Below are positions 10,364 to 37,366 of a stretch of 40,000 bases of DNA, in pieces. Position 1 is the first letter of the stretch, and each line of letters begins with the position of its first letter. The stretch is from an uncultured Acidobacteriota bacterium (lineage in GTDB: Bacteria; Acidobacteriota; Terriglobia; Terriglobales; Acidobacteriaceae), in contig CAVWJE010000001.1 of assembly GCA_963755225.1 (NCBI GenBank), positions 324,005 through 364,004 on the forward strand. The letters are read 5' to 3'. The notes below the pieces were generated by a model. It worked only from the letters and a program-made list of their open reading frames with translations. It had not been told where the DNA came from and did no database searches. The translations under genes and the position numbers were made by a program.

Positions 10364-10377
10364 TCGAATCGAGGCGC

Positions 10378-11064: not shown

Positions 11065-11133
11065 GGGGACAGTATAGGACGGAAAAAGGGCGGAGTGCAT
11101 GGAGTCACTCCGCCCGAATCGTCGCAACCGCCG

Positions 11134-12657: not shown

Positions 12658-12810
12658 TGCGGCGATTGAGATGTTGCGATATTCGTTGATTGGTAACTGC
12701 TCTTTGCGTAACTTGCATGACTTCTTCTCCTCTCATTCGGTTGTATTTCTGGTTGGTGGTGAGCGGCGCACACGTTGTGCGTATGCGCCGGAATCTCTGG
12801 TTGTTTGCGG

Positions 12811-13652: not shown

Positions 13653-13990
13653 GTTTTTTCCCTTCTGCCGGTGTCGGCTTGTTTTTTCTTTCACTAGAGC
13701 GGCAGCGAGGAAAAACAAGGCGACACGGGCGAAGGGACCGAACGGAGGCCGGAGGGAGGGTGGCAGGGCGTGAGGGAAAGCGCGGTTAGTGCCAAACGCG
13801 GTTGGGTTCAGTTTGGCGCGAAACCGGCGCAGTCCGAAACGCCCGTCCGAGCCGCGGCCAAGCGGCGGTCCACCCGGAAGAGGGCGAAGTGGAAGAAAAG
13901 GGGCGGAGCCTCGAAGGACCGATATGGAGGGCTTTACTAAGTCGGCACTTGTGCAATTAGGATTCTTGGATCAAGATGTAACGCAAGGCA

Positions 13991-14288: not shown

Positions 14289-14993
14289 ATGAACAAGCGC
14301 GGGGTCGTATTGTTAAGTGGCGGGCTAGATTCGTCAACTACGTTAGCGATTGCAAAAGATGAGGGTTTCAGTGCGTATGCCCTGAGTTTCAGGTATGGCC
14401 AGAGACACGAGGTGGAACTGGCAGCCGCTCAGCGGATCGTGGAGGCACTTGGGGCGAAGGAGCACATTGTCCTGAACATCGATCTACGGCCCTTTGGGGG
14501 TTCGGCGTTGACAGCCGACATAGAGGTACCCAAAGGTCGATCAGAACTCGAGATGGGTTCTGAGATTCCAATTACATACGTACCCGCAAGGAACACCATC
14601 TTTCTTGCCTTTGCACTGGCTTGGGCAGAGGTACTCGAATCGCAGGACATTTTCATTGGGGTGAATGCGGTCGACTACAGCGGATATCCGGATTGCCGAC
14701 CTGAGTTCATCAACGAATTTGAGTGCCTGGCGAATTTGGCAACCAAGGCGGGAGTAGAAGGCAAATCGAAGGTCAGGATACATGCCCCGCTGATCAAACT
14801 GTCCAAGGCGGAAATCATACGCAGAGGAATTAACCTGGGTGTCGATTACTCCTTGACCACCAGTTGCTACGATCCCTCGCCCGTTGGAGAAGCTTGCGGA
14901 GATTGCGACTCATGCAAGCTGCGAAGAAAGGGATTTAGGGAGGCGGGTGTGGCGGATCCAACCCGCTACCAGACACTCCGCGTTAGTGCATGA
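14289..14993 (+). CDS. queC: 7-cyano-7-deazaguanine (preQ0) synthase
   Basis: PP-loop [17 protein letters not shown], and the C-terminal Zn cluster [24 protein letters not shown] at 14278-14284. Confidence 0.95.
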
Positions 14994-15622
14994 GATACGC
15001 AGTCAAGGAGATTTTTTACTCGCTCCAAGGGGAGGGGGCCAATGTTGGCCGCGCAGCGGTATTTTGCCGTTTTGCAGGGTGCAATCTTTGGTCAGGGCGT
15101 GAGCAGGATCGGACAGCGGCGGCCTGTCAGTTCTGCGATACGGATTTCGTCGGAACTGACGGAAACGGTGGTGGTCATTTCGCGTCAGCAGATGAACTTG
15201 CAGGGGCCGTTAAGGCGAAATGGCCTTCTGGCGGGGTTAAACCCTTTGTCATCTGCACCGGTGGTGAACCCTTGTTGCAACTGGATCGAGGTTTGGTGGA
15301 AGCATTGCACGCGGCGGGTTTTGAGATCGCCATTGAGACAAATGGTACTCGAATCCCGCCCGCGGGTGTCGATTGGATCTGTGTAAGTCCTAAAGCGGAT
15401 GCGCGACTGGAACTTCGATACGGCCAGGAACTGAAACTGGTGTTCCCGCAAGAAAATGCCATGCCCAAGTCATTTGACGATCTTGATTTTCGCCACTTTT
15501 TTCTACAGCCAATGGATGGATCCAAATTGGCTGAGAATACACGGTTGGCTTTGCAATACTGTTTGGAACATCCGCAGTGGAGGCTGAGTTTGCAAACGCA
15601 CAAGTTTCTAAGTATTCCGTAG
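14990..15622 (+). CDS. queE: 7-carboxy-7-deazaguanine synthase (radical SAM)
   Basis: N-terminal [28 protein letters not shown]...CQFCDT carries the CX14CX2C cluster spacing. The start overlaps the queC stop (ATGA, 14990-14993). Confidence 0.95.
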
Positions 15623-15644
15623 TCGAGAGGGTGCGTGCTTGCTA

Positions 15645-16004
15645 ATGGAGATATTTAAGGAGTTCACGATCGAGGCGGCCCACCGACTGCCCCATGTACC
15701 GCCAGGCCATCGGTGTGGCAGGCTTCACGGTCACTCGTTCCGCATTGAGATTTATGTTAAGGGGGATGTGGACTCGGTGACAGGTTGGGTGGTGGACTTT
15801 GGAGAGATCAAGCGGGCATTCGGCTCAATACACGACGTCCTAGATCACAACTACCTAAACGAGATAGATGGCCTTGCGAATCCGACGAGCGAAAATCTGT
15901 CTCGGTGGATTTGGATGCGGCTACGACCAATGTTGCCTTTGTTGAGCAAGATTATTGTGCGTGAGACCTGTACGAGCGGGTCCATCTACCAAGGAGAGGA
16001 TTAG
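15645..16004 (+). CDS. queD: 6-carboxy-5,6,7,8-tetrahydropterin synthase
   Basis: MEIFKEFTIEAAHRLP...CGRLHGHSF...LDHNYLNE with the typical QueD/PTPS Zn-binding His residues. About 120 aa. Confidence 0.95.
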   Translation: MEIFKEFTIEAAHRLPHVPPGHRCGRLHGHSFRIEIYVKGDVDSVTGWVVDFGEIKRAFGSIHDVLDHNYLNEIDGLANPTSENLSRWIWMRLRPMLPLLSKIIVRETCTSGSIYQGED

Positions 16005-16010
16005 AACCGC

Positions 16011-16848
16011 ATGGAAGATGTCCAGAATCGACCTGACGAGCGCCAAATACCAATCGATAGAGTTGGCGTCAGCGACTTGCGCTACCCGATCACGGTTCTC
16101 GATCGGGAACATCAGAAGCAGCAGACCGTTGCGCGTTTATCAATATCGGTCGCACTGCCACATGATTTCAAAGGCACGCACATGAGTCGGTTTATCGAGG
16201 TGTTGAATGAGCACCACGGTGAGATCACGATGCGAACACTCCCAGGATTTCTCGTGGACATCAAGAAGCGACTCGCTGCTGAGAGCGCCCACATCGAAGT
16301 GAGATTCCCTTATTTCCTTGAGCGTACAGCGCCGGTGAGTGGTTCGAAAGCTCATGGACTACGACTGCTTCTTCTCGGCGGAGGCGAACGGAGGCAAACA
16401 GGATTTTGTTCTCGGAGTGCGGGTACCCGTTACTACGCTTTGTCCGTGCAGCAAGGAAATCAGCGACTACGGGGCTCACAACCAACGGGGATATGTGGAT
16501 ACCCGAGTGCGGAGTATTCTGCAAGCCGACGGCACCCGTGCGCTGATCTGGATTGAGGAGTTGGTCGAGTTGGTGGAGCGTTCCGCCTCTGCGCCGGTCT
16601 ATCCGTTGTTGAAGCGGGCTGACGAGCGGTATGTCACCATGCAGGCATACGACAAACCAATGTTTGTGGAGGACGTTGTCAGGGACGTTGCACAATCTTT
16701 GCAGAGGGACCCACGGGTGGCGTGGTTCCGGGCACATGCCAAGAACGACGAGAGTATTCATAATCACAGTGCGTTTGCGCAAATTGAGTGGGCCCGAAGC
16801 GCGTCGCGGGCTGTTGCGGAACTGGTTGAAGCGGAAGCCGTAAGCTGA
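16011..16848 (+). pseudogene. folE2: GTP cyclohydrolase I type 2 (FolE2/MptA family), one frameshift as given
   Basis: ORF 16011-16556 reads RVGVSDLRYPITV...GTHMSRFIEVL...YFLERTAPVSGSKA as real protein, then nonsense. ORF 16339-16848 continues LMDYDCFF...TTLCPCSKEIS...HNQRG...ESIHNHSAFA. The frame switch must lie within 16339-16355 (A3 run at 16347-16349). Confidence 0.85.
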
Positions 16849-16934: not shown

Positions 16935-16937
16935 TTG

Positions 16938-17898
16938 ATGGAACGCGCAATTAACATCGTTGTCACCTGCACGAAAAGAAAGTCCCAACCGGCTACATCC
17001 AATCTCCGACTTCGCAGCGTCAGAGCCAAGACAGTTGCCGAAAAACTGGACATATGGCTAAACAGACTTGGCGCAGCTTCCAGCGAGCTTTTGCCCGGGC
17101 GTGAACTCTATGCGGGCGATCATTGGAGCATAGTCAAGTCTCTAGCCGACACGGCCGCGAAATCAGGTCTTGTTGCGAGGGTCTGGGTTTGTTCGGCAGG
17201 CTACGGGCTTATCTCGCTAGACTCCAAGGTGCGTCCGTATGCTGCGACGTTCACTCCGGGCCTGCCCGACTCGGTCGCACGCGGTATTCGAAAGCCACCA
17301 GCGGCCCAAGTTGGGAAGGAGTGGTGGGGACTGTTAACGAAATGGTCAGGCCCAAATCCCCGAGTTTCCACGTAGCATTGCGGCCCTGGCTGAGCGCAAC
17401 CCGAATTGCCCACTTCTGATTGCTGCTTCACGGGACTACTTGACTGCGATCGAAGAGGATATTGCGTCGGCAGCGACCTTGCTAGTTCGGCGCGGGAATC
17501 TGATGATTTTTTCTGGTGCTGGCCACAACAGTTCAAGAATGGCGGGCGGCTACCTTCCGTGCAGCGCGGTGTTGCAGCGGGCGGTCGGGGGAGCAAGAAC
17601 TTCGCTTAACGTTCGTATTATTCGGAGAGTGCTTGAGGTCGCTGGTCCGGGCCGGTTAAATCACACGGCGGTACGCCGGACTTTGGAGCGCCTGATTGGT
17701 CAACAATCGCGGACGAGACGAGTTGTGCGACAACCGGCAAGCGATACCAAAATCCGGAAGTTTATCATGCTGGAACTGAACCGGAACCCCGCGGCGAGAC
17801 TTGGACCGTTACTGCGAAAATTTCGCGATCGAGGCTATGCGTGTGAGTATTCTCGCTTCGGGACGGCGTTGAAGGATCTTCAGCGGCGAGGTTGGTAA
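16938..17898 (+). pseudogene. dpdC: DpdC-like protein (candidate by position and fold pattern), one frameshift as given
   Basis: ORF 16935-17375 reads ELYAGDHWSIVKSL...VWVCSAGYGLISLDSKVRPYAATF, a pattern I associate with DUF6884-type proteins. It continues in the +1 frame, open from 17338 (PEFPRSIAALAERNPNCPLLIAASRDYLTAIEEDI..., ORF 17440-17898). Removing one C from the C4 run at 17358-17361 restores a single ~320-aa ORF. The DpdC assignment is contextual. Confidence 0.5.
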
Positions 17899-19034
17899 TG
17901 GCGCGTAGAACGAGGTCGGTAATTCAGCGAAGGGCTCTGCGACTGCGACAGAATCCAGCCCATCCTCTGTACTTGTTCTGTCTGACGGGAGATGAAATTC
18001 TGCGGATTGCTGACATCTCTCGATTGTCCCGCGACGATGCAGGCAAACTGATCGGGTACCAGCGGCCCGAGGTGCGGCGACACATCCAGGAGATCGCGGA
18101 CTATCTGAACACCGATGACATCCTGTTTCCGAATTCGCTCATTCTGGCTTTATCCTCAAGTGTGAAGTTCCGAGGTAGTCGTGGCCCGCATGTGGCGGAT
18201 GGTTTGGCGGAGGCGGGTATACTCGAGATCCGGGTACCAGGTCCTAAAGAATCCAAGCCCGCTTGGATTGTGGACGGACAGCAGCGGGCCCTGGCGATTG
18301 CCAAGTCGAAGCGGGCTGACTTGCCTATTCCGATCAACGCGTTTGTTGCTGATGATGTTGCGCTCCAACGTGATCAATTCTTTCGAGTCAACAACACCAG
18401 ACCGCTGCCGCGCGGATTGATTACGGAATTACTCCCGGAAGTCTCCACGCCCCTTCCTGCGAATCTCGAAGCCCGTAAGATCCCCTCGGCGCTATGTAAT
18501 CTGCTCAGCCAAGATAAACACTCGCCGTTCCGGGACTTGATTGCCCGCGCGTCCACCGCCGTTGCTAAGAGGAAGAAAGCAGTGGTTGCGGACGCGTCGA
18601 TAATTAAGATGCTGCAGGAGAGTCTGTCGTCGCCATCGGGATGTCTGTTTCCGTACCGCAATATTGCCACAGGTGAGACCGACTTCGACGCGATTTGGGC
18701 GACGATGGTGACTTATTGGACTGCTGTCCAGAAGACATTTCCAGAGGCTTGGGGCAAGCCTCCCCAAAAGAGTCGCCTCATGCATGGTGCGGGGCTTCGC
18801 GCGATGGGACGGTTGATGGATCGGGTTATGGCCCAAGTCATTCCGGGCAGTCCTGGGGCGGTAGATCATGCGCGCCACGAACTAAAGGTGATTGTGCCAA
18901 TCTGCCATTGGACCAGCGGTCGGTGGGCAGAGTTGGGGCTTGAGTGGAATGAAATACAGAACGTTCCTCGACATATCCGTATCCTGTCCAACCTTTTGGT
19001 CCGGGCTTATGTTCAGGGAAGGAGGGCGGCGTGA
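17898..19034 (+). CDS. dpdB: DndB/DpdB-type DGQHR-domain protein (here DGQQR), copy 1
   Basis: PAWIVDGQQRALAI (DGQQR at 18273-18287), FFRVNNTRPLPRGLITELLP and SRLMHGAGLRAMG. The ATG at 17898 overlaps the upstream stop (TAATG). Confidence 0.8.
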   Translation: MARRTRSVIQRRALRLRQNPAHPLYLFCLTGDEILRIADISRLSRDDAGKLIGYQRPEVRRHIQEIADYLNTDDILFPNSLILALSSSVKFRGSRGPHVADGLAEAGILEIRVPGPKESKPAWIVDGQQRALAIAKSKRADLPIPINAFVADDVALQRDQFFRVNNTRPLPRGLITELLPEVSTPLPANLEARKIPSALCNLLSQDKHSPFRDLIARASTAVAKRKKAVVADASIIKMLQESLSSPSGCLFPYRNIATGETDFDAIWATMVTYWTAVQKTFPEAWGKPPQKSRLMHGAGLRAMGRLMDRVMAQVIPGSPGAVDHARHELKVIVPICHWTSGRWAELGLEWNEIQNVPRHIRILSNLLVRAYVQGRRAA

Positions 19035-20275
19035 AGTTCTTTTTCCCAGACAGTCAGGATTTTGTCGATCCTAGTTTCAATTTTGAAACAGAAGTACGGT
19101 CCACTCTGAGAATCCGTCAGAGGGATGACCGGTACGCCCATGAAGAATTCGCAACACCGCCCTTTGACGGATTGTTGGTGTCGCGGGCTGTCTTGGACAG
19201 CGGGCGCTACACCTTAGCGCAGAAGCACCGTTTGTTGCGGGTCGGCTTGCAAGACTTCTTTAGGATAGCGGGTAAGAATCTGGAGACCATGGGAGACTGT
19301 GGTGCGTTTTCTTACGTTAGAGAAGAGTACCCTCCATACTCTGTTGACGAAATTATCCGCTTTTATGACGAAGTCGGTTTCGATTACGGAATCTCGGTGG
19401 ACCATGTGATTCTGGGTTTTGATGCGACAGAAAAGGGGGTCGGCCCTGACTGGAAGAGGCGCCGAGAGATCACCCTGCAGCTTGCCACTGAGTTCATTCG
19501 TGAGCACAGACGGCAGGATTGCCGCTTCATCCCCCTGGGGGTTGCGCAGGGGTGGAGTCCTGCTTCGTACGCTGATTCGGTTGAGCAACTGCAGAAGATG
19601 GGATACAGCTACTTGGCTTTAGGAGGCATGGTGCCACTCAAGACACCAGATATACTTGCTTGCCTAGAGGCAGTAGAGTCTTGCCGACGACGTGAAACAC
19701 GGTTACATCTTCTTGGTATTACGCGGTGCGAGCAAGTTCGGCAGTTCGGCAAGTATGGAGTCGCAAGTTTTGACAGTACTTCACCATTGCGACAGGCGTT
19801 CAAGGATATGAAAGACAATTATTGGGCAATGGACCGTACGTATTCGGCGATCAGGGTTCCACAAGTTGAAGCCAATCCTGAGTTGTCACGCCGTATATTG
19901 GCGGGCAAGGTGGACCAAAGTGAAGCTCGGCGACTGGAAAGGGCATGTTTACAAGCGCTTGCGGCATACGATTCGGATGCAGCATCGATCGAAGATATAT
20001 TGCCGCTTCTGCGGGCTTACGAACAACTGCATGACGGCTCTCGGGATCGAACGGAGATCTATCGAGAGGTACTGACCGATAAACCGTGGAAGAAGTGCCC
20101 ATGTGACGTCTGCAGGAGAATAGGGATTCACGTGATCCTGTTTCGTGGTGCTGAACGAAACCGGAGGCGAGGATTTCACAATCTATTTGTGTTTTACCAG
20201 CGACTGCATCGTGAACTGGGACAGGACGAGAATCGAGGCACTCCCGTTCTGGCGATCGAATGCATACAGAAGTAG
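19031..20275 (+). CDS. dpdA: DNA-guanine transglycosylase-like protein (TGT-fold, DpdA family)
   Basis: The GTG start overlaps the dpdB stop (GTGA, 19031-19034) and follows GGAGGG. Motifs include GDCGAFSY, GISVDH, LALGGMVPL and LHLLGITR. The TGT-type Zn motif is CPCDVC (20096-20113) followed by HVILFRGAERNRRRGFHN. Confidence 0.88.
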   Translation: MKFFFPDSQDFVDPSFNFETEVRSTLRIRQRDDRYAHEEFATPPFDGLLVSRAVLDSGRYTLAQKHRLLRVGLQDFFRIAGKNLETMGDCGAFSYVREEYPPYSVDEIIRFYDEVGFDYGISVDHVILGFDATEKGVGPDWKRRREITLQLATEFIREHRRQDCRFIPLGVAQGWSPASYADSVEQLQKMGYSYLALGGMVPLKTPDILACLEAVESCRRRETRLHLLGITRCEQVRQFGKYGVASFDSTSPLRQAFKDMKDNYWAMDRTYSAIRVPQVEANPELSRRILAGKVDQSEARRLERACLQALAAYDSDAASIEDILPLLRAYEQLHDGSRDRTEIYREVLTDKPWKKCPCDVCRRIGIHVILFRGAERNRRRGFHNLFVFYQRLHRELGQDENRGTPVLAIECIQK

Positions 20276-20286
20276 GGAGCAAGGCC

Positions 20287-21447
20287 ATGCCCGATATCAG
20301 TGTTCTCCGCCTGCCGGCTCTGGAGATTATCCAGGGGCCAAATCGTACTCTTTACAGCTTTGCGGTTGACGGTAAGCAACTCACAATGTTTGCCACGGTT
20401 TCCAGGATTCGTCGGCAGAGTGATGAGGTGTTATGCGGTTACCAGAGACCGGAAGTGCTGTCCCACATTGCCGAGATTCGCCGGTATCTGGAGTCACCGG
20501 ACCCCATGATTCCGAACGCAATTGTGGTCGCTTTTGACGAACGGGTGGAGTTTGAGCCTGCAGAAAGACAAGAAGGAGTGTCTCCCTACAGTCGCTCGGG
20601 GACTATCGTTATACCGATCGACTCAGGTCTGAGTGATCAGGAAAAGCCCGGTTGGATTGTCGATGGCCAACAGCGGATGGCTGCCATTCGCGAAGCGTCT
20701 ATCCACAACTTTCCGATCTGTGTGACCGCGTTCATCGCAAAGAACGATCAGGAACAAAAAGAGCAGTTCATTTTGGTGAACTCGACAAAGCCACTTCCGA
20801 AGGGACTAATTTACGAGTTGCTGCCCACTACGCAGATGACGCTGCCTTCTCTTCTGCAGCGGCGACGGTTCCCGGCCAAACTGGCCAACCGACTGAATTA
20901 TGATTTGGACTCCCCGTTTAAGGGCAAAATACGGACTGCAACTAATTCAAATGGTGCCGTGCAGGATAACTCCTTGCTGAAAATGCTGGAGAATAGCTTG
21001 AGTGATGGCGTCCTATATCGATTTCGCGACGCCGATACGGGAACCGGTGACGTGGAGTCGATGCTAAGAGTGGTTAAGGCTTTCTGGGGCGCGACGGCCA
21101 AAACATTTAAAGAAGCTTGGGAATTACCGCCTGTGCGTTCGCGATTGGTTCATGGGGCTGGCATCGTCAGCATGGGGTTCTTGATGGACGCCATTTCTGA
21201 TCGGTACTACGACAACCAGGAACTGACTGAGGAGCAATTTTTAGGAGATTTGCAACCTTTTCAACGGGTCTGCCGCTGGACACAGGGCTATTGGGACTTC
21301 GGACCGGGTGCCCAACGGAAGTGGAATGAGATTCAAAACACGTCGAAAGATATCAAGTTGCTTGCGAACTACCTTCTACTCCAATACCGCGCAATGATCA
21401 CAACTCGCCCGCGTGAGGAATCTGCGTACCGATCGCTGAATTCCTGA
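20287..21447 (+). CDS. dpdB: DndB/DpdB-type DGQHR-domain protein (DGQQR), copy 2 (diverged paralog)
   Basis: PGWIVDGQQRMAAI (DGQQR at 20662-20676), FILVNSTKPLPKGLIYELLP, SRLVHGAGIVSMG and WNEIQNTSKDIKLLANYL. The ATG at 20287 follows AGGGAG. Confidence 0.8.
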   Translation: MPDISVLRLPALEIIQGPNRTLYSFAVDGKQLTMFATVSRIRRQSDEVLCGYQRPEVLSHIAEIRRYLESPDPMIPNAIVVAFDERVEFEPAERQEGVSPYSRSGTIVIPIDSGLSDQEKPGWIVDGQQRMAAIREASIHNFPICVTAFIAKNDQEQKEQFILVNSTKPLPKGLIYELLPTTQMTLPSLLQRRRFPAKLANRLNYDLDSPFKGKIRTATNSNGAVQDNSLLKMLENSLSDGVLYRFRDADTGTGDVESMLRVVKAFWGATAKTFKEAWELPPVRSRLVHGAGIVSMGFLMDAISDRYYDNQELTEEQFLGDLQPFQRVCRWTQGYWDFGPGAQRKWNEIQNTSKDIKLLANYLLLQYRAMITTRPREESAYRSLNS

Positions 21448-21504: not shown

Positions 21505-21526
21505 CCGACCGAAGAGTCTCGGTCGG
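21505..21526 (+). terminator. GC-rich hairpin downstream of dpdB copy 2 (weak candidate intrinsic terminator)
   Basis: CCGACCGA-AGAGTC-TCGGTCGG: 8-bp perfect stem with a 6-nt loop, followed by TCGTTGTTCG (T-containing but not a clean U-tract). It lies 58 nt after the stop at 21447. Confidence 0.3.
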
Positions 21527-21697: not shown

Positions 21698-24600
21698 TTG
21701 AGACGAACTCGGAGGGTGACCAAACAAGACGTGTGCCCACATCTTCAAGCTGCCGGCTTTGTAAAGTCGCGCTCAAATCGTCTCGGTTCAGGCAAACTCG
21801 TCGGCGTGTCCGGTGGCACTGCAACCGTAGAGTATTTTCGTTCCATAGCGAATAGGTTTCGAGAGCAGTTACGGGTTGAGTCGCTGTCGATCGTTCGCCT
21901 TCCTGCGCAGACTCGCTGCTACTTCGTGGATGGCGAAGGCTCCTGGTTAATGGGACGGACGGGTGCATTTTTCGACGGGGAATACGAAGTCAATCTTCCT
22001 GGGAGGCAGGCTCGCTACGTCCCTGAAACATCGTTATTCGTCCGGTGTGGCTTACCCATAGAGGATCCAACAGATGTGCTCGCGTTGAAGGCTCATGAAA
22101 CAGCGTTCTTTCATCAGCATCGATTGGAGTTCTACAGGTGTCTGGTAGATCAACGGGCAGCTTTTCGAGGAATGACGGGGTTAGTTTCATCACGCGTGGA
22201 ACTGTTTCCTCACCAGTTCGATGTAGTGCGGCGAGTTTTGCAGGATCCAGTGCAACGGTACCTGTTAGCAGACGAGGTAGGACTGGGTAAGACCGTAGAA
22301 GCGGGAATCATTCTGAGGCAATTGTTGCTTGATCAACCTAATGCTACCGCCCTGGTTCTAGTTCCACCGTTAATTATCGATCAGTGGAAGCAAGAATTGG
22401 AAGAGAAGTTCACTTTTGGGCTGGCCGGAGAAGTCGAGGTTTACGGCACAAATCGCTTGTTGCATTTGTGCGCGTCTGAGAGATCTCGTTATCTTGGACG
22501 AGGCTCAACTGGTTGCGTCTTTGGCATGGGGGTCGGGCAAAGATAGGGCAGCCTTCGACAACTTTATGGAGTTCTCGCGTCGCGCGAAAAGACTGTTGCT
22601 GTTGTCTGCCACACCAGTGCTGAACAATGAGCGAGACTTTCTGGCAATGTTGCACATGCTTGATCCTGCCGTGTTTCGTTTGGAAGATTTCCATGAGTTT
22701 CGGGTCCGCATAGGCAAACGGCAGGAAGTGGGCAGGGCACTGCTGGCGCTACGAGAAGGAATGTCCATAGTTCCGCTGAAAGCTGCCCTGAGAGCATTGC
22801 GTCGAAATTTTCAGGAAGACAAGATGCTCGATGGCCTTGCTTCGCGGTTGGAGAACCTGCTTAATGGTGATTCTAGCTCAGAGGAGCGTGACAAAATAAT
22901 TCGTGACATCCGGATCCACATTAGTGAGACGTATCGCTTGCATCGACGTATGCTGCGAAACCGCCGACAAAACGTTGGAAATGTGCTCTGGTCAGTTCGT
23001 AATGGCAAAACTGAATTTAACAAAATGGTGCAGGAGATCGACACTGATGAGCGCCTTCAGTCGGCTCTGGAACAATTGGAGAACTGGCGAGCGGCGGCCA
23101 TCAACGAGGCCAAAGGGTTTGAAAATGGTTCGTGGATGCTGGGGTTGAAGGAAGTCTATTTCTTGTTGTTGGAAGCACTTGATGGTTCATTGTGCATACT
23201 TCATGAAGCGGCAATAGCACGCCGCCAACGAACATCGTCGGTTTCTCTCGCGCGTGATTTCGGCTCTAGGGCGAATGTGTTGTGGGAGTGTCCGGAATTC
23301 GACGGTGAAGATGTCTGGCTTAAGGAGTTGCAACACCTCACAGAACGCCCGGCGGAAGACGGTGACCGACTCCATGTCTTGAGGGACATAATCAGAAGGC
23401 GTCGAGGTGGGCGCGGCGCGTCAAATAGCAAGTTCGTAGTGTTTGCGACGCTTCCGAGCGTTTGCCGACGAGCTTACGAGTTTCTGCAAACAGCGTTCGG
23501 AGAGCATTCTGTGGCGTCCTATTACGGTGGGCAAAGTACGGAAGAGGCTGAAGACAGTACAGAATCGTTTCGCGATGCGAATTCCCATTGCGACATTCTT
23601 GTCTGTGATCGATCTGGCGAAGTTGGCCGAAATTTGCAGTTTGCTAATGTCTTAATTCATCTGGATCTTCCCTGGAATCCCAACCGCATTGAACAGCGAA
23701 TCGGTCGACTCGACCGAATCGGTCGCAAGGAGCGCCTGACTTCTCATGTATTTATTGGTCCCGATACAGAGGGATCTGTTGTTGAGGCGTGGTATCGGAT
23801 GCTTTCCGACGGTTTCGGCGTCTTCGGCGAATCGATAGCCTCCCTTCAACTCTTCGTGGATGCTGTTATGCCGCGAGTCCGCGAAGCAAGTTGGATGTAT
23901 GGTTCGACTGGACTCGAAACTCTTCTACCTTCTCTACGTGAAGAACGGGAGATCGAACGCGTGCGAATAGCCGAGCAGGACGCGCTTGATCTGATTGAAT
24001 CGACCACCGGTGATGATCGAGATGTTTTCCAGCGGTTGGACGAGTTGGACGGCGAACATTTGCGCTTGCAGAGCCAGATGGAGTCATGGGTGGTAAATGC
24101 ATTGAACTTCAATAAGAAAGAAGTACCGGCCGTGGCAGGGGCTTGGTACTACAAAACTGCTCACAATACGCTTGTGCCGCTGAACCTGTTGGCCGGAACT
24201 GAAGAGGACGAATCTATAGCCGTTTCCATAATTGAGCCGAAGACATTCCGGCGGGAAACCGCTGTCGCGAATCCTGAGGTCGGGCTATTGCGGATTGGTG
24301 ATCCATTCGTGGACGCGATGGCTTCTTACCTGGATTGGGATGATCGAGGAAAGGGATGCGCACTTTGGAGGTGCGTTTCCGGATGGAACGGTTCAGAATC
24401 CGCAGATTGGATTGGTTTTCGATTTATTTTCTTAGTGACTGCTGATTGCAGCAAGGCAGTCGCTAGCGCAAAACGACTTCTGCCGGCAGACTTGACGAAT
24501 CTGCAATGGTCAAGCGTGGCGATGCCTTGCTTGCTCCTTTCCTGGTTGACCGTATTCTTGATGCTGATGGGAAGCACGTCTCTGAAGCGCGGATTGTGGA

Positions 24601-25015
24601 AGCGATAAAACTGCCATACAACTTGAAGGAACGTACGATTGATACAAATCTGGCAAAGGAGCACCTGTCAGTCCTTGATCGTCTGGTCGATTCGAGTCGG
24701 TGGCCCGATCTGTGTCGCCGACTGCGGTTTCTAGCTGAAACTCAATTACGGGAGGACCCGGAATTCAAGATGATCACGGAAGGTGCAGCCGAAGATGCGG
24801 CCAAGAGACTATCAGTGCAAACGGAATCTCTCCGCCTTCGGGTTGCAGAACTTGCTCGTAAAGGGGGTCAGGACCTGCAGTTCGAGCAGGATCACTTGCG
24901 TGTTGAGCAGCAACTCGCCGACGATCTCCTCGCTGGAATTGGCGAGCCTCACGTCAGGCTCGACTCGATTGCATTCTATGTGTTGTCCGGGCGTCCGTGC
25001 CCACGCGAAAAATGA
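21698..25015 (+). pseudogene. dpdE: SNF2-family helicase (DpdE-like), two frameshifts as given
   Basis: Fragment 21698-22546 carries motif I LLADEVGLGKTVEAG and LVLVPPLIIDQW. Fragment 22416-24608 carries DExQ LVILDEAQ, LLLSATPV and DLPWNPNRIEQRIGRLDRIGR. Fragment 24506-25015 is the C-terminal tail. Junctions are at about 22440-22480 and 24495-24510. The start codon is uncertain (TTG at 21698 or downstream GTGs). Confidence 0.8.
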
Positions 25016-27606
25016 GAGACTCGTTTCACATGATCGGAGAGTGGCTCCGCTCTGGGGCGGGGTCCGAGATTGACCTGTCAGGCGTTACCAGAAACGAACG
25101 CCGCCTTGTTGTCGTAGTGCAGGAATTGTTGTCGGGGGCGGTCACGACAGGTCGTGGTGACATGGTAGTCGCCGCAAGACAACTGTTGCGCGTGGAGGAA
25201 GAGCGACAGTCTGGTGTTTCTCAGCGGTTTGTAGTTCCCCAGGGAAGTCCCTGGCCCACTGTTGAGGAATGGGAGGCGGCAGGATGCCAGGTTGAAGACT
25301 ACGGCACTCGGCTTCATGTGGCAGCTCAACCTTGGGTGCCTTCTTGGTTAGTACGTGGAGTCGAAGGAAGTGTTGATGGTCCCTCGTATGCAGAATCATT
25401 ACGCCGGTTACCATGCGAGGTGTTGGGTGATCCTTTCTTAAAGCGACTCGGCTACAAGAGTTACAGAAACGCTGGTCAACGTGAAGCGGTAAGGGGAGCT
25501 CTTACGGCACCGCCGTCGTCAACCTTGATTGTGGTATTACCCACTGGTGCTGGGAAGAGTCTTTGCGCGCATCTGCCAGCGGCATTGAGTACAAAAAAGC
25601 TCGGGACGACGGTTGTGATAGTACCGACTACTGCTCTCGCGCTTGACCAAGAACAGGCTGTGCGGGCTGTATTCCCCGATCCGACCGCCTTCGTGAGCGG
25701 CAGAAGCGACCATGAAAAACTCCGCAATCGAGAGATTTGGCGTCGTGTCCAGGATGGAACCCAAAAGATTGTTTTTACTTCTCCGGAGAGTGCTATTCAG
25801 TCGCTGGCCGGTGCGATTTACAGCGCCGCGTCAAAGGGCCTGATAGACACACTGGTAATAGACGAGGCCCACATGGTCGATGCTTGGGGCGACGACTTTC
25901 GGTCGGCCTTCCAGGAACTTGCCGGCTTTCGCTCAGATTTGCTTCGTTACAGTGCAAAACCGTTTCCTACGCTGCTGTTGACAGCCACCCTCACCGAGCC
26001 ATGCCTAGATTCGCTTGAGACTCTATTTGGCCAACCTGGCCCTTTTAAGCTGTTGGCGAGCGTGCAACTCCGGCCCGAACCTTCGTACTGGTTTGCGCGC
26101 TGCGTGGATTCTAGCCAGAAGCAGGAGCGTGTTATCGAGGCAGTTCAAAACCTCCCGCGGCCTTTGATTTTGTACGTCACCAGGAGAGCAGATGCGGAGA
26201 ATTGGTTGGCAACGCTAATTTCCGCGGGATTTCGAAGGTCCGCGATTGTCACGGGTGAAACTCCCAACGATCAGCGGTTGAGGGTTCTCAACAGGTGGCG
26301 GGAGGAGTCCATTGATATAGTCGTTGCAACGTCAGCTTTCGGACTAGGCGTAGACAAGGACAATGTACGCACGGTCATACATGCTTGTGTTCCAGAAAGC
26401 GTCGACCGGTTTTATCAAGAAGTCGGGCGGAGTGGTCGCGATGGCAATGCGAGCGTTTCGTTAGTAGCGTACACAAATGCTGATTGGTCGCAAGCTCGGC
26501 AACTCTCGAAAAAAAGGCTTATTTCACTTGATCGTGGGAGGGAGCGGTGGCTGAGTATGTTTCACCGGGCTGAACTGCTCGCAGATGGCCGTTTCCGCAT
26601 ACCGGTTGATGCTGTGCCGAGTTTCTCTGAAGGTGACATCGACATGCGCAATAGCTACAACGTAGCTTGGAACCTGCGTACGCTGACGTTGATGGCGCGG
26701 GCAGGCTTGTTGCGTTTAGATGGAGAACCGCCGCCTACTTACAGAAAGACGACTGATACAGCTGACGACAAGGCGGAGTCTACCGAAAAAGAGTCCCAGC
26801 AGACACTTGATATCGAGCGATACCGCAACCGTCGAATCGTCAAGATTCTCGACCAACATCACTTGACTGAGGATGTTTGGGCCGAAAAAGTTGGACCACT
26901 GAGAAAGTCGGCACACCGCTTTTCTCAGCGGAATCTCGGATTGCTGAAGGACGCGCTATCTGGGCAGGAATGTATATCAGCGGTTTTGTCAGAGACCTAC
27001 TCGATACCGGCGAAGCCCGGTCGGAGCGGAGTTGCGGTCGAAATATCTTGCGGCGGTTGTCCGTTTTGTCGAAGTATGGGGAGCAAGCCATATTGCGGTT
27101 CTATACATGCGCCTTGGCCTGTGTGGCGGAGGACGTTTCCAGTCGGTGATGTGCTCCGTTCGATGCTTTCACGACATAACATGTTGGCAATCTTCTATGA
27201 AGCTGGTCGAGGAAGAGAGTGGAATCGCCACAGGAATGCTGTCGTCCTTTGGTTGGCTGCGCAAGGAATCCGGAGTGTAGTGGCGCCGAGAGAGTTGTTG
27301 GAGGAGTGGCTAACGCTGGACTGGAAGTCGTATCTGGTTTGTTTCACCGCTATTGATGAACTCGTCATGCCGCGACTTCCGTGGCTTCCGACCATGGTTT
27401 TTCATCCCACGAACCTGCCCGCCCCTGCAGGACTTTATCGACGCGACCACGGTGGAACAAAGGACGATGGCGATTTGTCCCAGACTACGGTAGTGCTATT
27501 CCCACGTACAACCGTTGATCCTGCGGCGCCGCACCGAATGTTGATGGACGTCTGGCCGGAACGAGGTGTCAACTTCCAGGAATTGCGAAGCAAGGAAGCC
27601 ATATGA
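25012..27606 (+). CDS. dpdF: RecQ-like DEAD/DEAH-box SF2 helicase (DpdF-like)
   Basis: Motif I VLPTGAGKS, motif II LVIDEAHMV, LLLTATLT, VVATSAFGLGVDK and QEVGRSGRDG, plus a C-terminal Cys cluster CGGCPFC. The ATG at 25012 overlaps the dpdE stop (ATGA). Confidence 0.8.
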   Translation: MRDSFHMIGEWLRSGAGSEIDLSGVTRNERRLVVVVQELLSGAVTTGRGDMVVAARQLLRVEEERQSGVSQRFVVPQGSPWPTVEEWEAAGCQVEDYGTRLHVAAQPWVPSWLVRGVEGSVDGPSYAESLRRLPCEVLGDPFLKRLGYKSYRNAGQREAVRGALTAPPSSTLIVVLPTGAGKSLCAHLPAALSTKKLGTTVVIVPTTALALDQEQAVRAVFPDPTAFVSGRSDHEKLRNREIWRRVQDGTQKIVFTSPESAIQSLAGAIYSAASKGLIDTLVIDEAHMVDAWGDDFRSAFQELAGFRSDLLRYSAKPFPTLLLTATLTEPCLDSLETLFGQPGPFKLLASVQLRPEPSYWFARCVDSSQKQERVIEAVQNLPRPLILYVTRRADAENWLATLISAGFRRSAIVTGETPNDQRLRVLNRWREESIDIVVATSAFGLGVDKDNVRTVIHACVPESVDRFYQEVGRSGRDGNASVSLVAYTNADWSQARQLSKKRLISLDRGRERWLSMFHRAELLADGRFRIPVDAVPSFSEGDIDMRNSYNVAWNLRTLTLMARAGLLRLDGEPPPTYRKTTDTADDKAESTEKESQQTLDIERYRNRRIVKILDQHHLTEDVWAEKVGPLRKSAHRFSQRNLGLLKDALSGQECISAVLSETYSIPAKPGRSGVAVEISCGGCPFCRSMGSKPYCGSIHAPWPVWRRTFPVGDVLRSMLSRHNMLAIFYEAGRGREWNRHRNAVVLWLAAQGIRSVVAPRELLEEWLTLDWKSYLVCFTAIDELVMPRLPWLPTMVFHPTNLPAPAGLYRRDHGGTKDDGDLSQTTVVLFPRTTVDPAAPHRMLMDVWPERGVNFQELRSKEAI

Positions 27607-28487
27607 GTCTTTATAAGGAGGGCACGTACTCTGTTCCCGGAAGGATTCTGGCGCTCCATGAGTTACTCCTCACGCGGACACAGATGAAAGAACGGCGGGA
27701 GGTGTGCGAATCGTTGTTGATGCCGGAGTCTCTTCTTGAGGCAGAGAAAAAGCGTCCGATGGTTCGAGCAGTTGTTAACGAAGCGTTAAAGTTGGGCCTG
27801 ATTGTTAAGGAAGAGGACGAGATTCTCATAGATAAGGGAGTACCAAGAATCCTCCTCGACGGGAAGGCCAATCGCCGGTATTGGCCTCTGGCTTACATGG
27901 AGTTGATCGCCAGCAGTGAGGAGAATCGCGATCTCGCTTTGGCTTTCGCCTGGTGGTTGAGCTTACCTGTCTTTGGAGCACCGGGAGACTGGACAACGAT
28001 TGACCGGAATCAAGGATTTGCGATTCAAGTAAAGCAGTTAAACATGAATGATGTTCGCTACTCGATGCTCGCGTCGTGGGCGATTTATCTGGGTTTGGCT
28101 TGGCGACATCTCAAACAGGCATTGGTGCCTGACCCCACAAGCCACATACGCTGGCGTTTAGAACAGGAGTTTGGTCGCAAAGAGCAGATTCTTGAAATGA
28201 CAGACTTCGTTCGGAAACTCTCTGTCTGGTGCCCAGTGCTAGATTCAGGGAGTTTCCGACTTCAACTCGAGAAGCAAGGTGTCTTGGAGAGGTTGCCAGC
28301 AAAGCACTTGTCTTCCACGCTTTCCTTTGCTCTCGTGAGACTGACTGAAGAGGCTCAACTGGAGTTGAGCCACGCTGCGGACGGTGAGGCATTGCTCTTG
28401 GACGAAACAGTAGTTGCTGACAGACCCGAATTGCAACGTGTCTCACGAGTTCGGTGGTTAGGAAGGGTGCGCGAGGGAATCGCATGA
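27603..28487 (+). CDS. dpdG: hypothetical protein in the DpdG position (294 aa)
   Basis: Intact ORF, with ATGA overlaps to both neighbours (27603-27606 and 28484-28487). No motif recognised; the symbol is assigned only from its position between the F-like and H-like genes. Confidence 0.4.
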   Translation: MSLYKEGTYSVPGRILALHELLLTRTQMKERREVCESLLMPESLLEAEKKRPMVRAVVNEALKLGLIVKEEDEILIDKGVPRILLDGKANRRYWPLAYMELIASSEENRDLALAFAWWLSLPVFGAPGDWTTIDRNQGFAIQVKQLNMNDVRYSMLASWAIYLGLAWRHLKQALVPDPTSHIRWRLEQEFGRKEQILEMTDFVRKLSVWCPVLDSGSFRLQLEKQGVLERLPAKHLSSTLSFALVRLTEEAQLELSHAADGEALLLDETVVADRPELQRVSRVRWLGRVREGIA

Positions 28488-32210: not shown

Positions 32211-32226
32211 TGAAGGTGTCAAGCAA

Positions 32227-37359: not shown

Positions 37360-37366
37360 TCGCGCC

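What the first reader, a model, noticed from the sequence alone, without database searches (positions are those of the whole stretch)
17898..21447. DpdA is bracketed by two diverged DGQQR (DndB/DpdB-type) paralogs
ORFs 17898-19034 (378 aa) and 20287-21447 (386 aa) are collinear by eye. Shared blocks include P(A/G)WIVDGQQR, F(F/I)xVN(N/S)T(R/K)PLP(R/K)GLIxELLP, SRL(M/V)HGAG and WNEIQN...(I/L)LxN(L/Y)L; elsewhere they are clearly diverged. Both carry DGQQR (18273-18287; 20662-20676) rather than the DGQHR signature that names the family. The characterised system, as I recall it, has a single DpdB ATPase working with DpdA. Copy 1 is translationally coupled to dpdA (GTGA overlap), and copy 2 is the last gene before the gap that precedes the effector arm. 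Two untested possibilities are a B1/B2 heteromer and a division of labour, with one copy driving preQ0 insertion and the other serving the restriction arm.
Basis: partly seen in the sequence, partly recalled or inferred. Interest (0 to 1): 0.65.

Follow-up and report, generated by a model that had tools for sequence, protein, structure and literature searches.

The report
Second conserved DpdB beside DpdA
The DNA-modifying enzyme DpdA in this window is flanked by two anciently diverged copies of its ATPase partner DpdB, an arrangement common in many bacterial phyla but missing from the Salmonella model system, so the job of the extra copy has never been studied.

Summary
ORFs 17898-19034 (B1) and 20287-21447 (B2) are collinear paralogs, 37% identical (E 2e-84). 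Both pass the NCBIfam DpdB equivalog cut-off, and both carry DGQQR. DGQQR is not unusual: it is the canonical DpdB motif.

The arrangement is not peculiar to this window. dpdC-B1-dpdA-B2 recurs in about 60 of the 80 closest DpdA loci among GTDB species genomes, across at least seven phyla, and on 9 of 16 DpdB-bearing plasmids. A 2025 survey counted 801 extra dpdB copies but did not analyse them.

A rooted tree splits the family by position:
- B2 is downstream of dpdA and groups with the single enterobacterial DpdB, so it is the canonical ortholog.
- B1 lies between dpdC and dpdA and forms a separate orthogroup.

B1 and B2 are equally conserved (about 58% within each clade, dN/dS 0.01-0.19), so neither is a decaying duplicate. 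B1 is markedly basic (mean net charge +10.5 against +0.7). It never occurs without B2, has been lost many times, and is unrelated to whether restriction genes are nearby.

My best reading, which is inferred and not shown, is that B1 is an accessory DNA-binding ParB-like NTPase of the modification module, probably working with B2 and DpdA. It is a widespread but uncharacterised variant of a known system, of moderate interest.

The parts
14289..16004 (+). preQ0 synthesis genes queC (14289-14993), queE (14990-15622) and queD (15639-16004), at the head of the modification operon
   Evidence: ORF list and translations. The same gene order with Pfam QueC and PTPS hits is seen in the close relative L086. 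phmmer hits to these proteins occur across the related loci.
16011..16848 (+). GTP cyclohydrolase FolE2, split into two ORFs (16011-16556 and 16339-16848) by a frameshift near 16345-16352
   Evidence: NF010200 model positions 1-117 fall in the first ORF and 118-270 in the second. tblastn of the intact L001 FolE2 switches frame at 16345-16352. There is a 2-nt gap relative to L086.
16935..17898 (+). dpdC (DUF6884 family), split into two ORFs (16935-17375 and 17440-17898). Its TAA stop overlaps the B1 ATG.
   Evidence: tblastn of the L001, L002 and Enterobacter DpdC proteins switches frame at about 17354-17368. The L001 ortholog hits PADLOC DpdC PDLC02817 at 4.6e-57. There is a weak DUF6884 hit. 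The junction TAATG was read.
17898..19034 (+). dpdB1: the extra, basic DpdB paralog (378 aa, net charge +18). DGQQR is at 18273-18287.
   Evidence: NF041060 424.8 bits. It belongs to the 'upstream' clade. It keeps 86 of 86 clade positions that are at least 95% conserved. AF2 pLDDT is 80.9 and the best Foldseek hits are ParB CTPases.
19031..20275 (+). dpdA: DNA guanine transglycosylase (414 aa). Its GTG start overlaps the B1 stop as GTGA.
   Evidence: NF041059 567.2 bits. Junction read. The same 4-nt overlap occurs in 51 of 58 related loci.
20287..21447 (+). dpdB2: ortholog of canonical DpdB (386 aa, net charge +1). DGQQR is at 20662-20676. A GGGAG ribosome-binding site lies 7-11 nt upstream.
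   Evidence: NF041060 498.5 bits. It is 49% identical to the single Enterobacter DpdB. It belongs to the 'downstream' clade that contains all single-copy DpdB. It keeps 96 of 96 conserved clade positions. AF2 pLDDT is 83.9.
21505..21526 (+). Terminator-like hairpin (8 pairs, 6 of them G-C) about 60 nt after the B2 stop. It is a plausible end of the modification operon.
   Evidence: The pattern scan as a whole is no richer than shuffled sequence, so only the position is suggestive.
21698..39640 (+). Restriction arm: dpdE (21698-25015, three ORFs, two frame breaks), dpdF 24997-27606, dpdG 27603-28487, dpdH 28454-31495, partial dpdI 31734-32210, dpdJ (32227-34905 plus 34943-36850, one break), dpdK 36829-37359, dpdD 37319-39640
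   Evidence: NCBIfam equivalog hits for DpdE, F, G, H, I, J, K and D, with model coordinates showing the splits.

Best explanation
**What it is (shown).** The window carries a complete dpd island for 7-deazaguanine DNA modification and restriction. Its modification operon reads queC-queE-queD-folE2-dpdC-dpdB1-dpdA-dpdB2.

- The two DpdB genes come from one ancient duplication and form two orthogroups.
- B2 lies downstream of dpdA. It is the ortholog of the characterised ParB-like ATPase that DpdA needs to insert preQ0 into DNA.
- B1 lies between dpdC and dpdA. It is a second full-length ParB-like NTPase.
  - It keeps DGQQR and the other family motifs.
  - It evolves as slowly as DpdA and B2.
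  - It is consistently much more basic than B2.
  - It is found only where B2 is also present.

The four-gene block C-B1-A-B2, with overlapping stop and start codons, looks ancestral for the sampled dpd systems. B1 has been deleted repeatedly, including on the line leading to the enterobacterial model system.

**How it most likely works (inferred).**
- B1 belongs to the modification module, not the restriction arm.
- It acts at the DpdA/B2 step as a DNA-binding-specialised partner.
- This could be as a B1-B2 heterodimeric clamp built on the same nucleotide-gated ParB-type interface that makes canonical DpdB a homodimer. It could instead be a second clamp that loads or positions DpdA on DNA.
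- B2 alone is sufficient, as in Salmonella. B1 would therefore raise efficiency or change site choice without being essential.
For: **Paralogy and family.**

**Recurrence.**
- Occallatibacter and Rubinisphaera carry DndB-TGT-DndB.
- Sinorhizobium and Skermanella plasmids are annotated dpdB-dpdA-dpdB.
- 60 of 80 GTDB loci have full B1, A and B2. One more locus, cut downstream, also has B1.
- 9 of 16 DpdB-bearing plasmids have two copies.

**Two orthogroups.**
- Mean identity is 58% among upstream copies, 57% among downstream copies and 38% between the groups, with a maximum of 45%.
- The NJ tree, rooted on DndB-like proteins, separates the copies by position. The single Enterobacter DpdB and all single-copy DpdB fall in the B2 clade.
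- Bootstrap support is 89.5% for the B2 clade and 67% for the B1 clade.

**Constraint.**
- 104 (B1) and 122 (B2) of 376 columns are at least 90% conserved. These include GYQRP, VDGQQR and PLPxGL..ELLP.
- dN/dS is 0.006-0.19 for B1, 0.04-0.15 for A and 0.02-0.14 for B2.
- The window's copies match every position that is at least 95% conserved in their clade.

**Fold.** B1 and B2 AF2 models have the same order of secondary-structure elements. The best PDB neighbours of B1 are ParB CTPases.

**Module membership.**
- The B1 stop overlaps the A start by 4 nt in 51 of 58 loci.
- The dpdC stop overlaps the B1 start by 1 or 4 nt in 42 of 65 loci.
- B-A-B occurs with and without restriction genes.

**Repeated loss.**
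- A-B loci are scattered through the DpdA tree.
- B1 remnants remain in L047 and L037.

**Divergence.**
- Mean pI is 9.5 for B1 and 7.7 for B2. Mean net charge is +10.5 against +0.7.
- B1 is the more basic copy in 60 of 65 loci (p about 1e-11).
- Four of the six clade-fixed differences put an Arg in B1.

**Link to A and B2 more than to C.** Partial correlations of distance matrices are 0.31 for B1-A, 0.29 for B1-B2 and 0.15 for B1-C.

**Literature.** Canonical DpdB is a homodimer with a DGQQR motif, and its ATPase is stimulated by DpdA-DNA (PMC10164549).
Against: - Nothing here shows a B1-B2 contact. The structure tool folds single chains only.
- B1 has been lost at least 8-10 times. B2 shows no acceleration afterwards: dB2/dA is about 1.0 with or without B1. 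B2 also shows no charge compensation. Both results argue against an obligate heterodimer.
- In Salmonella, DpdB and DpdA form no stable complex on SEC, so stable partnerships may not be the rule in this system.
- One DpdC-B1 fusion protein exists (P0126), and B1 always co-occurs with DpdC in 50 of 50 loci. This fits a DpdC-linked role equally well.
- Mirror-tree correlations are weak and confounded by shared operon history.
- The 80 loci are the best matches to a DpdA alignment anchored on this window, so the 80% frequency is not an unbiased estimate.
- Trees are NJ only, and support for B1 monophyly is moderate.
- Several other genes of this window's island are frameshifted, so the system may not be functional in this genome if those breaks are real.
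Confidence: 0.5

Rival explanations
1. The operon is two enzyme-plus-NTPase cassettes in tandem. B1 serves DpdC, helping it reach or flip dPreQ0 in duplex DNA for conversion to dADG. B2 serves DpdA.
For: - The gene order reads C-B1 | A-B2. The dpdC stop overlaps the B1 start in most loci.
- B1 was never seen without DpdC (50 of 50 well-flanked loci).
- The fusion proteins match the proposed pairs. DpdC-B1 is P0126, seen on 2 contigs. DpdA-B2 occurs in at least 6 diverged representatives. B1-A fusions mostly involve truncated B1.
Against: - In vitro, Salmonella DpdC converts dPreQ0-DNA to dADG-DNA independently of DpdA and DpdB (PMC10164549).
- DpdC is kept in 11 of 13 loci that lost B1, and its rate does not change: dC/dA is 2.09 against 2.15.
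- The B1-C partial correlation (0.15) is lower than B1-A (0.31) and B1-B2 (0.29).
- The DpdC-B1 fusion is a single cluster. One indel at an overlapping stop/start junction could produce it.
- DpdC is so common (about 85-88% of loci) that full co-occurrence within an inherited block is weak evidence.
Confidence: 0.2
2. B1 is a regulator, not part of the catalytic machinery. Like DndB in phosphorothioation systems, it would be a basic ParB-like protein that binds DNA, either the operon promoter or the genome. It would limit or tune modification in response to ATP.
For: - B1 belongs to the DndB/DGQHR superfamily (PF14072, 63 bits).
- It is strongly basic.
- It is dispensable in many lineages.
- DndB is described as a DNA-binding negative regulator modulated by ATP (PMC5699537; references).
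Against: - B1 scores as DpdB, not DndB. It gives no TIGR03233 hit.
- It sits inside the operon and is translationally coupled on both sides. It is not at a divergent promoter.
- It evolves at the same rate as DpdA and B2 and co-diverges with them. That pattern is typical of a machine subunit.
- No HTH or other specific DNA-reading domain was detected.
Confidence: 0.12
3. Division of labour between the arms. One DpdB drives preQ0 insertion and the other works with the DpdD-K restriction machinery.
For: - B2 is the last gene before the gap that precedes dpdE.
- SspE, a relative, couples a ParB-like NTPase to DNA nicking (PMC10164549).
Against: - B-A-B is found on plasmids and chromosomes with no dpdD-K gene within about 10 kb. 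This holds for 13 of 50 loci and for L004 and L005.
- Restriction genes are about as frequent without B1 (9 of 13) as with it (37 of 50).
- The enterobacterial system restricts with a single DpdB.
- The literature reports that DpdB lacks the SspE nuclease motif.
Confidence: 0.05
4. A simple decaying duplicate: one copy is a pseudogene in the making.
For: - B1 has been lost in several lineages, and remnants exist in L047 and L037.
- Other genes of this window's island carry frame breaks.
Against: - Both copies are full length in 60 of 80 genomes from many phyla.
- dN/dS is far below 1 for both copies.
- All conserved motifs are kept.
- The window's copies match 86 of 86 and 96 of 96 conserved clade positions.
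- Identity between clades is only 38%, so the duplication is ancient and both copies have persisted.
Confidence: 0.02

Closest known systems
DpdB of the Salmonella enterica serovar Montevideo Dpd system (ParB-like ATPase required by DpdA for preQ0 insertion; PMC10164549)
   Same: - B2 is its ortholog by three measures. It is 49% identical to the near-identical enterobacterial DpdB. It has the same position immediately downstream of dpdA. It falls in the same clade.
- Both B1 and B2 share its length, the DGQQR motif, the NCBIfam and PADLOC family assignment, and a predicted ParB-like N-terminal part followed by a helical C-terminal part.
   Different: - The model system has one DpdB that forms a homodimer. 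This window has two paralogs that are 37% identical.
- B1 is a separate orthogroup. It is encoded between dpdC and dpdA and has a net charge about 10 units more positive. Clade-fixed arginines sit at B1 positions 12, 163, 172 and 217.
- No biochemistry exists for any B1-type protein.
Two-DpdB dpd islands already present in databases (e.g. Sinorhizobium americanum CCGM7 plasmid B, Skermanella rosea pSR-1, Occallatibacter savannae, Rubinisphaera margarita)
   Same: They have the same dpdC-B1-dpdA-B2 block with overlapping junctions. PGAP names both genes DpdB. A published survey counted dpdB as the dpd gene with the most additional copies, 801 among 2335 unique islands (PMC12235509).
   Different: - This window also carries the full dpdD-K restriction arm and all four preQ0 genes in one co-oriented array. 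The plasmid examples are modification-only.
- I found no paper that separates the two copies into orthogroups or assigns them roles.
DndB (DGQHR protein of the dnd phosphorothioation system) and SspE
   Same: They belong to the same ParB/Srx-like NTPase superfamily with a DGQ(H/Q)R nucleotide-binding motif. There is a Pfam DndB (PF14072) hit for both copies. SspE appears among the weak structural neighbours.
   Different: - The DndB equivalog model is not met: B2 scores 17.5 bits against a cut-off of 328, and B1 gives no hit.
- No dnd or ssp genes are nearby.
- DndB is a regulator and SspE carries a nuclease motif that DpdB lacks.
ParB CTPase clamps (ParB, Noc, KorB)
   Same: These are the best structural matches of the B1 model: 6SDK ParB-CDP at probability 0.89, then 7BM8, 7OL9 and 8QA8/9. 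The literature proposes nucleotide-gated dimerisation of the N-terminal domain around DNA for DpdB by analogy.
   Different: - Matches are weak (E about 0.01, TM about 0.2-0.35, none at E <= 0.001).
- The motif is DGQQR instead of GxxRxxA.
- DpdB hydrolyses ATP, not CTP.
- No HTH centromere-binding domain was detected.

Membership tests
DpdB (NCBIfam NF041060 equivalog) | Whole-protein score above the curated cut-off of 300 bits | tested here: met
   B1 scores 424.8 bits and B2 scores 498.5 bits, each over the full model length. PADLOC DpdB PDLC02811 gives 2e-144 and 6.5e-150.
DpdB | Conserved DGQQR nucleotide-binding motif in the N-terminal domain (PMC10164549) | tested here: met
   VDGQQR is present in both window proteins at residues 125-130. 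It is at least 90% conserved in both clades.
DpdB | [quoted passage not shown] | tested here: inconclusive
   AF2 models (pLDDT 80.9 and 83.9) show a mixed beta/alpha N-terminal half and a helical C-terminal half. The Foldseek top hits for B1 are ParB-family CTPases, Srx, PadC and SspE. This is the same set reported for Salmonella DpdB, but none reaches E <= 0.001.
DpdB | Encoded next to dpdA in a dpd cluster | tested here: met
   Both copies abut dpdA. DpdC through DpdK are all present in the window.
DpdB | Orthology to the characterised DpdB (same clade and same position downstream of dpdA) | tested here: met
   This is met for B2 only. B2 is 49% identical to the enterobacterial DpdB, and the B2 clade has 89.5% bootstrap support. 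It is NOT met for B1, which falls in the separate upstream clade.
DpdB | ATPase activity required for DpdA-catalysed preQ0 insertion; homodimer in solution | not testable with these tools
   This needs biochemistry. The only data are for the Salmonella protein.
DndB (TIGR03233 equivalog, dnd system) | Score above the 328-bit cut-off and a dndCDE neighbourhood | tested here: not met
   B2 scores 17.5 bits and B1 gives no hit. The neighbours are que and dpd genes, not dnd genes. Only the superfamily-level Pfam PF14072 is met.
Dpd restriction-modification system | dpdA, dpdB and dpdC plus dpdD-K in one island | tested here: met
   All of these are detected with equivalog models. However, dpdC, dpdE and dpdJ (and folE2) are interrupted by frame breaks, and dpdI matches only the C-terminal half of its model.

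The most novel reading that the evidence does not exclude
The ancestral and still predominant Dpd modification machine uses an asymmetric ParB-like clamp made of two specialised paralogs. B1 is a basic, DNA-gripping subunit and B2 is a near-neutral subunit that couples ATP hydrolysis to DpdA. The homodimeric single-DpdB machine studied in Salmonella would then be a secondarily simplified form. The B1 subunit would set where and how densely 7-deazaguanine is written.
Probability: 0.25. Interest if true: 0.6.

Novelty: new variant of a known kind. Interest (0 to 1): 0.45.

Why it matters
All mechanistic knowledge of bacterial 7-deazaguanine DNA modification comes from the enterobacterial system, which has one DpdB. 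If most other dpd systems carry a second, equally constrained and strongly basic DpdB paralog, the model system is a reduced version. The open questions about DpdB then gain a natural experiment. Those questions are what ATP hydrolysis does, how DpdA is brought to its sites, and why no stable A-B complex is seen. The experiment is to compare A+B2 with A+B1+B2.

There is also a practical point. Annotation pipelines (PGAP, PADLOC) give both genes the same name, which hides the distinction. Splitting the family model into two orthogroups would improve dpd subtype calling. The finding does not reveal a new kind of system.

Tried and rejected
- **Heterodimer prediction.** I built a B1-linker-B2 query with B1 and B2 homologs (alignment A3). 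MAFFT stacked the B2 homologs on the B1 half, so the alignment was unusable. The structure tool folds one chain, reports no inter-chain measures and restricts input. I used the two jobs on B1 and B2 monomers instead.\n- **Solved structures.** A sequence search of the PDB found nothing for B1 or B2 at E <= 0.01.\n- **Founding dpd papers.** PMC4801273 and PMC6207457 are not held. I could not check whether two-DpdB clusters, for example in Kineococcus, were drawn there. The supplement table of the GATOR-GC paper is not held either.\n- **Mirror-tree and relative-rate tests**. They gave only weak discrimination between partners, and I treat them as hints.\n- **Fusion proteins as Rosetta stones**. 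DpdA-B2 fusions recur. DpdC-B1 and B1-A fusions are singletons at overlapping junctions and could be indel artefacts, so I did not rely on them.\n- **Decaying duplicate and restriction-arm readings.** Rejected, as set out under the rival explanations.\n- **Cause of the frame breaks.** I tried to tell real mutation from sequencing error by aligning to the closest relative, L086. At 68% DNA identity this only confirms the folE2 indel, not its cause.\n- **Integration site.** A tRNA scan of the window found none.

Full report
**1.

- The ORFs at 17898-19034 (B1, 378 aa) and 20287-21447 (B2, 386 aa) align end to end. BLASTP gives 37% identity, 56% positives and E 2e-84.
- Both exceed the curated cut-off of the NCBIfam DpdB equivalog model (424.8 and 498.5 bits against 300). 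The ORF between them is DpdA at 567 bits. PADLOC also assigns both to DpdB.
- DGQQR is at residues 126-130 of each protein, which is nt 18273-18287 and 20662-20676 as stated.
- I read the junctions directly from the sequence:
  - The dpdC TAA stop overlaps the B1 ATG (TAATG, 17896-17900).
  - The B1 TGA overlaps the dpdA GTG (GTGA, 19031-19034).
  - dpdA ends at 20275. A GGGAG follows, then the B2 ATG at 20287.
  - After the B2 stop (21447) there are about 250 nt of non-coding sequence before dpdE. It contains a terminator-like hairpin at 21505-21526.
DGQQR is not a deviation. It is the motif described as conserved in characterised DpdB (PMC10164549).

**2. Context**

The window holds a complete dpd island on the + strand.

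| Genes | Coordinates | Note |
|---|---|---|
| queC, queE, queD | 14289-16004 | intact |
| folE2 | 16011-16848 | one frame break |
| dpdC | 16935-17898 | one frame break |
| B1 | 17898-19034 | intact |
| dpdA | 19031-20275 | intact |
| B2 | 20287-21447 | intact |
| dpdE, F, G, H, (I), J, K, D | 21698-39640 | dpdE two breaks, dpdJ one break, dpdI partial |

The gene upstream of B1 is DpdC. It is homologous to the Enterobacter DpdC, and its L001 ortholog hits PADLOC DpdC at 4.6e-57.

**3. The arrangement recurs widely**

- B1 has more than 100 relatives at 65-89% identity in metagenomes and genomes of several phyla. B2 has a similar set.
- Contigs encoding B1 orthologs in Occallatibacter savannae (Acidobacteriota) and Rubinisphaera margarita (Planctomycetota) carry the same DndB-TGT-DndB triplet after a DpdC-like gene.
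- A tblastn of B2 against plasmids found 16 DpdB-bearing plasmids, 9 of them with two copies. On Sinorhizobium americanum plasmid B and Skermanella rosea pSR-1, PGAP annotates dpdB-dpdA-dpdB followed by que genes. No restriction genes lie within 9 kb.
- I scanned one genome per GTDB species with a six-sequence DpdA alignment. This gave 454 relatives, and the best 80 were retrieved. HMM scans of their six-frame ORFs gave the following:
  - 60 loci have full-length B1, A and B2.
  - 1 locus has B1 and A but is cut downstream.
  - 1 locus (L037) has a displaced B1-type copy plus a B1 remnant fused to dpdA.
  - 1 locus (L047) has a short B1 remnant.
  - 13 loci have A-B only with adequate upstream flank.
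  - 4 loci are too truncated to judge.
- The hosts span Acidobacteriota, Planctomycetota, Gemmatimonadota, Myxococcota, Actinomycetota, Bacillota, Bacteroidota, Chloroflexota and Pseudomonadota. No locus has B1 without B2.
- A published survey of 2335 unique dpd islands reported that dpdB had the most additional copies (n = 801), without further analysis (PMC12235509). Searches for any naming or study of a second DpdB found nothing else in the held library.

**4. Two ancient orthogroups**

- Over 371 aligned columns, upstream copies average 58% identity to each other and downstream copies 57%. Upstream against downstream averages 38%, with a maximum of 45%.
- An NJ tree rooted on weakly matching DndB-like proteins from the same loci splits cleanly by gene position.
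  - All 84 downstream copies form one clade. It includes the single DpdB of the Enterobacter cloacae plasmid and every single-copy DpdB.
  - All 66 upstream copies, plus the displaced L037 copy, form the other clade. The alphaproteobacterial plasmid copies sit at its base.
- Bootstrap support on a 44-taxon subset is 89.5% for the B2 clade and 67% for the B1 clade.
- B2 is 49% identical to the enterobacterial DpdB. The enterobacterial island has the order dpdC-dpdA-dpdB with one dpdB, on an Enterobacter plasmid and in 161 of 5426 complete E. coli genomes.
- B2 is therefore the canonical ortholog and B1 is the extra gene.
- Among 50%-identity representatives of about 15 billion proteins, 205 match B1 at E <= 1e-30. 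Of the best 150, 35 full-length sequences are B1-type and 69 are B2-type.

**5. Neither copy is decaying**

- The B1 and B2 clades keep 104 and 122 of 376 columns at 90% conservation or more. 69 of these are shared, including GYQRP, PN, VDGQQR, QFxxVN, PLP(R/K)GLxxELLP, SRLxHG, CxWTxGxW and WNExQN.
- Nei-Gojobori dN/dS in 37 close locus pairs is 0.006-0.19 for B1, 0.04-0.15 for DpdA and 0.02-0.14 for B2.
- Mean pairwise distances are equal: A 0.646, B1 0.625, B2 0.644.
- The window's own B1 and B2 match all 86 and all 96 positions that are at least 95% conserved in their clades.
- AF2 models (pLDDT 80.9 and 83.9) have the same order of secondary-structure elements.
- The best PDB neighbours of B1 are ParB-family CTPases (6SDK, probability 0.89), Srx, PadC and SspE. 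This is the same set reported for Salmonella DpdB. All matches are weak, and none reaches E <= 0.001.
- No homolog has a solved structure detectable by sequence.

**6. What distinguishes B1**

- *Position and coupling.*
  - The B1 stop overlaps the dpdA start by 4 nt in 51 of 58 loci and by 1 nt in 5 more.
  - The dpdC stop overlaps a B1 start by 1 or 4 nt in 42 of 65 loci.
  - The A-to-B2 junction is looser, with a 4-nt overlap in 27 loci and mostly 0-40 nt in the rest.
- *Charge.*
  - B1 averages pI 9.5 and net charge +10.5. B2 averages pI 7.7 and +0.7.
  - B1 is the more basic copy in 60 of 65 loci (Wilcoxon p about 1e-11).
  - In the window the values are +18 for B1 and +1 for B2.
- *Fixed differences.* Four of the six clade-fixed differences are arginines in B1 (R12, R163, R172, R217). 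Two of them lie in the most conserved loop. That loop is the only long low-confidence stretch of the B1 monomer model (residues 163-192).
- *Dispensability.*
  - A-B loci are scattered through the DpdA tree among B-A-B loci. This implies roughly ten independent losses.
  - After loss, B2 shows no acceleration (dB2/dA about 1.0 in every class) and no shift in charge.
- *Independence from the restriction arm.* Among loci with good flanks, a dpdD-K gene lies within 10 kb in 37 of 50 B-A-B loci and in 9 of 13 A-B loci.
- *DpdC.* DpdC is present in 50 of 50 B-A-B loci and in 11 of 13 A-B loci.

**7. Mechanism**

Shown:
- B1 is a conserved, intact ParB-like NTPase-type protein.
- It belongs to the modification module.
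- It depends on the presence of B2 and DpdA, and it is not essential to every dpd system.

Inferred:
- Canonical DpdB is a homodimer proposed to close around DNA through its nucleotide-binding domain. Its ATPase is stimulated by DpdA-DNA.
- The simplest model is therefore that B1 joins this step as a DNA-binding-specialised partner. It could form a B1-B2 heterodimer on the ancestral interface, or act as a second clamp.
- Partial correlations of distance matrices lean slightly this way: B1-A 0.31, B1-B2 0.29, B1-C 0.15. DpdA-B2 fusions recur in at least six diverged clusters.

The main rival is that the operon is two enzyme-plus-NTPase cassettes, C-B1 and A-B2.
- In its favour are the gene order, the strict co-occurrence of B1 with DpdC, and one DpdC-B1 fusion (P0126).
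- Against it, DpdC acts independently in vitro in Salmonella, DpdC persists unchanged after B1 loss, and the fusion is a single cluster at a junction where one indel would fuse the genes.

A DndB-like regulatory role is possible but fits the internal, coupled gene position poorly. The restriction-arm and pseudogene readings are effectively excluded.

**8. Comparison and novelty**

The island is a Dpd system and B2 is a DpdB. B1 passes the family model but is not an ortholog of the characterised protein. The two-DpdB architecture is abundant in databases, annotated with identical names, and counted once in the literature. I found no analysis or experiment on it. I therefore rate it a new variant of a known kind. 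This window is an ordinary member of that variant.

**9. Caveats**

- The 80 loci are the best matches to a DpdA alignment seeded from this window, so frequencies are biased towards its relatives.
- Flanks are 10 kb, so 'no restriction genes' means none within that distance.
- Trees are distance-based.
- Structural matches are weak.
- No inter-protein prediction could be run.
- Several genes in the window have frame breaks (section 10), so activity in this particular genome is uncertain.

**10. Seen in passing**

- folE2, dpdC and dpdJ each carry one frame break, dpdE carries two, and dpdI is partial.
- An ABC exporter outside the island (756-2638, minus strand) is also split between its membrane and ATPase domains.
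- Breaks both inside and outside the island point to assembly indels more than to island decay. A 2026 preprint reports elevated nanopore assembly errors in dpd-positive genomes. The platform used here is unknown.
- The genes upstream of the island (ParB_N/HTH_ParB, SRAP, DUF4238, M78 peptidase) suggest a mobile-element setting. The close relative L086 has conjugation-type genes next to the same operon.

Noticed in passing
window 16011-16848, 16935-17898, 21698-25015, 32227-36850, 31734-32210: Five frame breaks interrupt genes of the island. folE2 breaks near 16345-16352 and dpdC near 17354-17368. dpdE is in three ORFs and dpdJ in two. dpdI matches only the C-terminal half of its model. queC/E/D, B1, dpdA, B2 and dpdF/G/H/K/D are intact. 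In the close relative L086, folE2 and dpdC are intact.
   Followed up: partly
window 756-2638 (- strand): An ABC exporter outside the island is also split. Its membrane domain (1724-2638) and ATPase domain (756-1550) are separate ORFs bridged by a third overlapping ORF (1243-1770). Frame breaks are therefore not confined to the dpd island, which points to assembly indel errors. A 2026 preprint reports raised nanopore error rates in dpd-positive genomes. The platform used for this contig is unknown.
   Followed up: partly
window 9398-13718: Just upstream of the island lie a DUF4238 protein (9398-10363), an SRAP/YedK-type protein (10378-11127, -), a 507-aa ParB_N plus HTH_ParB protein (11134-12657, -) and an M78/IrrE-like peptidase (12811-13365, -). 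This set is typical of integrative mobile elements. No tRNA gene is present in the window.
   Followed up: no
B1 residues 163-192 (window 18384-18473) and the equivalent B2 165-194: The most conserved stretch of the family is (R/L)VNxTxPLP(R/K)GLxxELLP. It is the only long region of the B1 monomer model with pLDDT below 50, and it is the weakest internal region of the B2 model (pLDDT 62-72). It also holds two of the six clade-fixed B1/B2 differences. It may become ordered only in a dimer or on DNA or a partner.
   Followed up: no
L037 9569-11224 and 13767-15014; L047 9103-9579: These look like intermediate stages of B1 loss. In L037 (Pirellulaceae MAG) a B1 C-terminal fragment is fused in frame to dpdA, and a full B1-type copy sits downstream of B2. 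In L047 (Polyangiaceae MAG) only a fragment of about 80 residues remains.
   Followed up: partly
proteins P0155, P0157, P0167, P0178, P0187, P0262 (DpdA-B2 fusions); P0126 (DpdC-B1 fusion): Natural single-chain DpdA-DpdB(B2-type) proteins of about 750-800 aa occur in at least six diverged 50%-identity clusters. This is of interest because Salmonella DpdA and DpdB form no stable complex on SEC. One DpdC-B1 fusion (689 aa) was seen on two contigs.
   Followed up: partly
L001 14605-18127; L002 13611-15410; several loci (weak 'B' hits): Some B-A-B loci lack dpdD-K and instead carry other candidate effectors next to B2. Occallatibacter has an HNH protein plus a distant DGQHR-like protein. Rubinisphaera has a TIR/ScoMcrA_N/kinase fusion. 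Distant DndB-like ORFs (40-70 bits) recur a few kb downstream in L006, L030, L033, L036, L040 and L052.
   Followed up: no
window 21505-21526: A G+C-rich hairpin (CCGACCGA-AGAGTC-TCGGTCGG) followed by a T-rich tail lies about 60 nt after the B2 stop, in the gap before dpdE. It is consistent with separate transcription of the modification and restriction arms. The scan as a whole is not enriched over shuffles.
   Followed up: no
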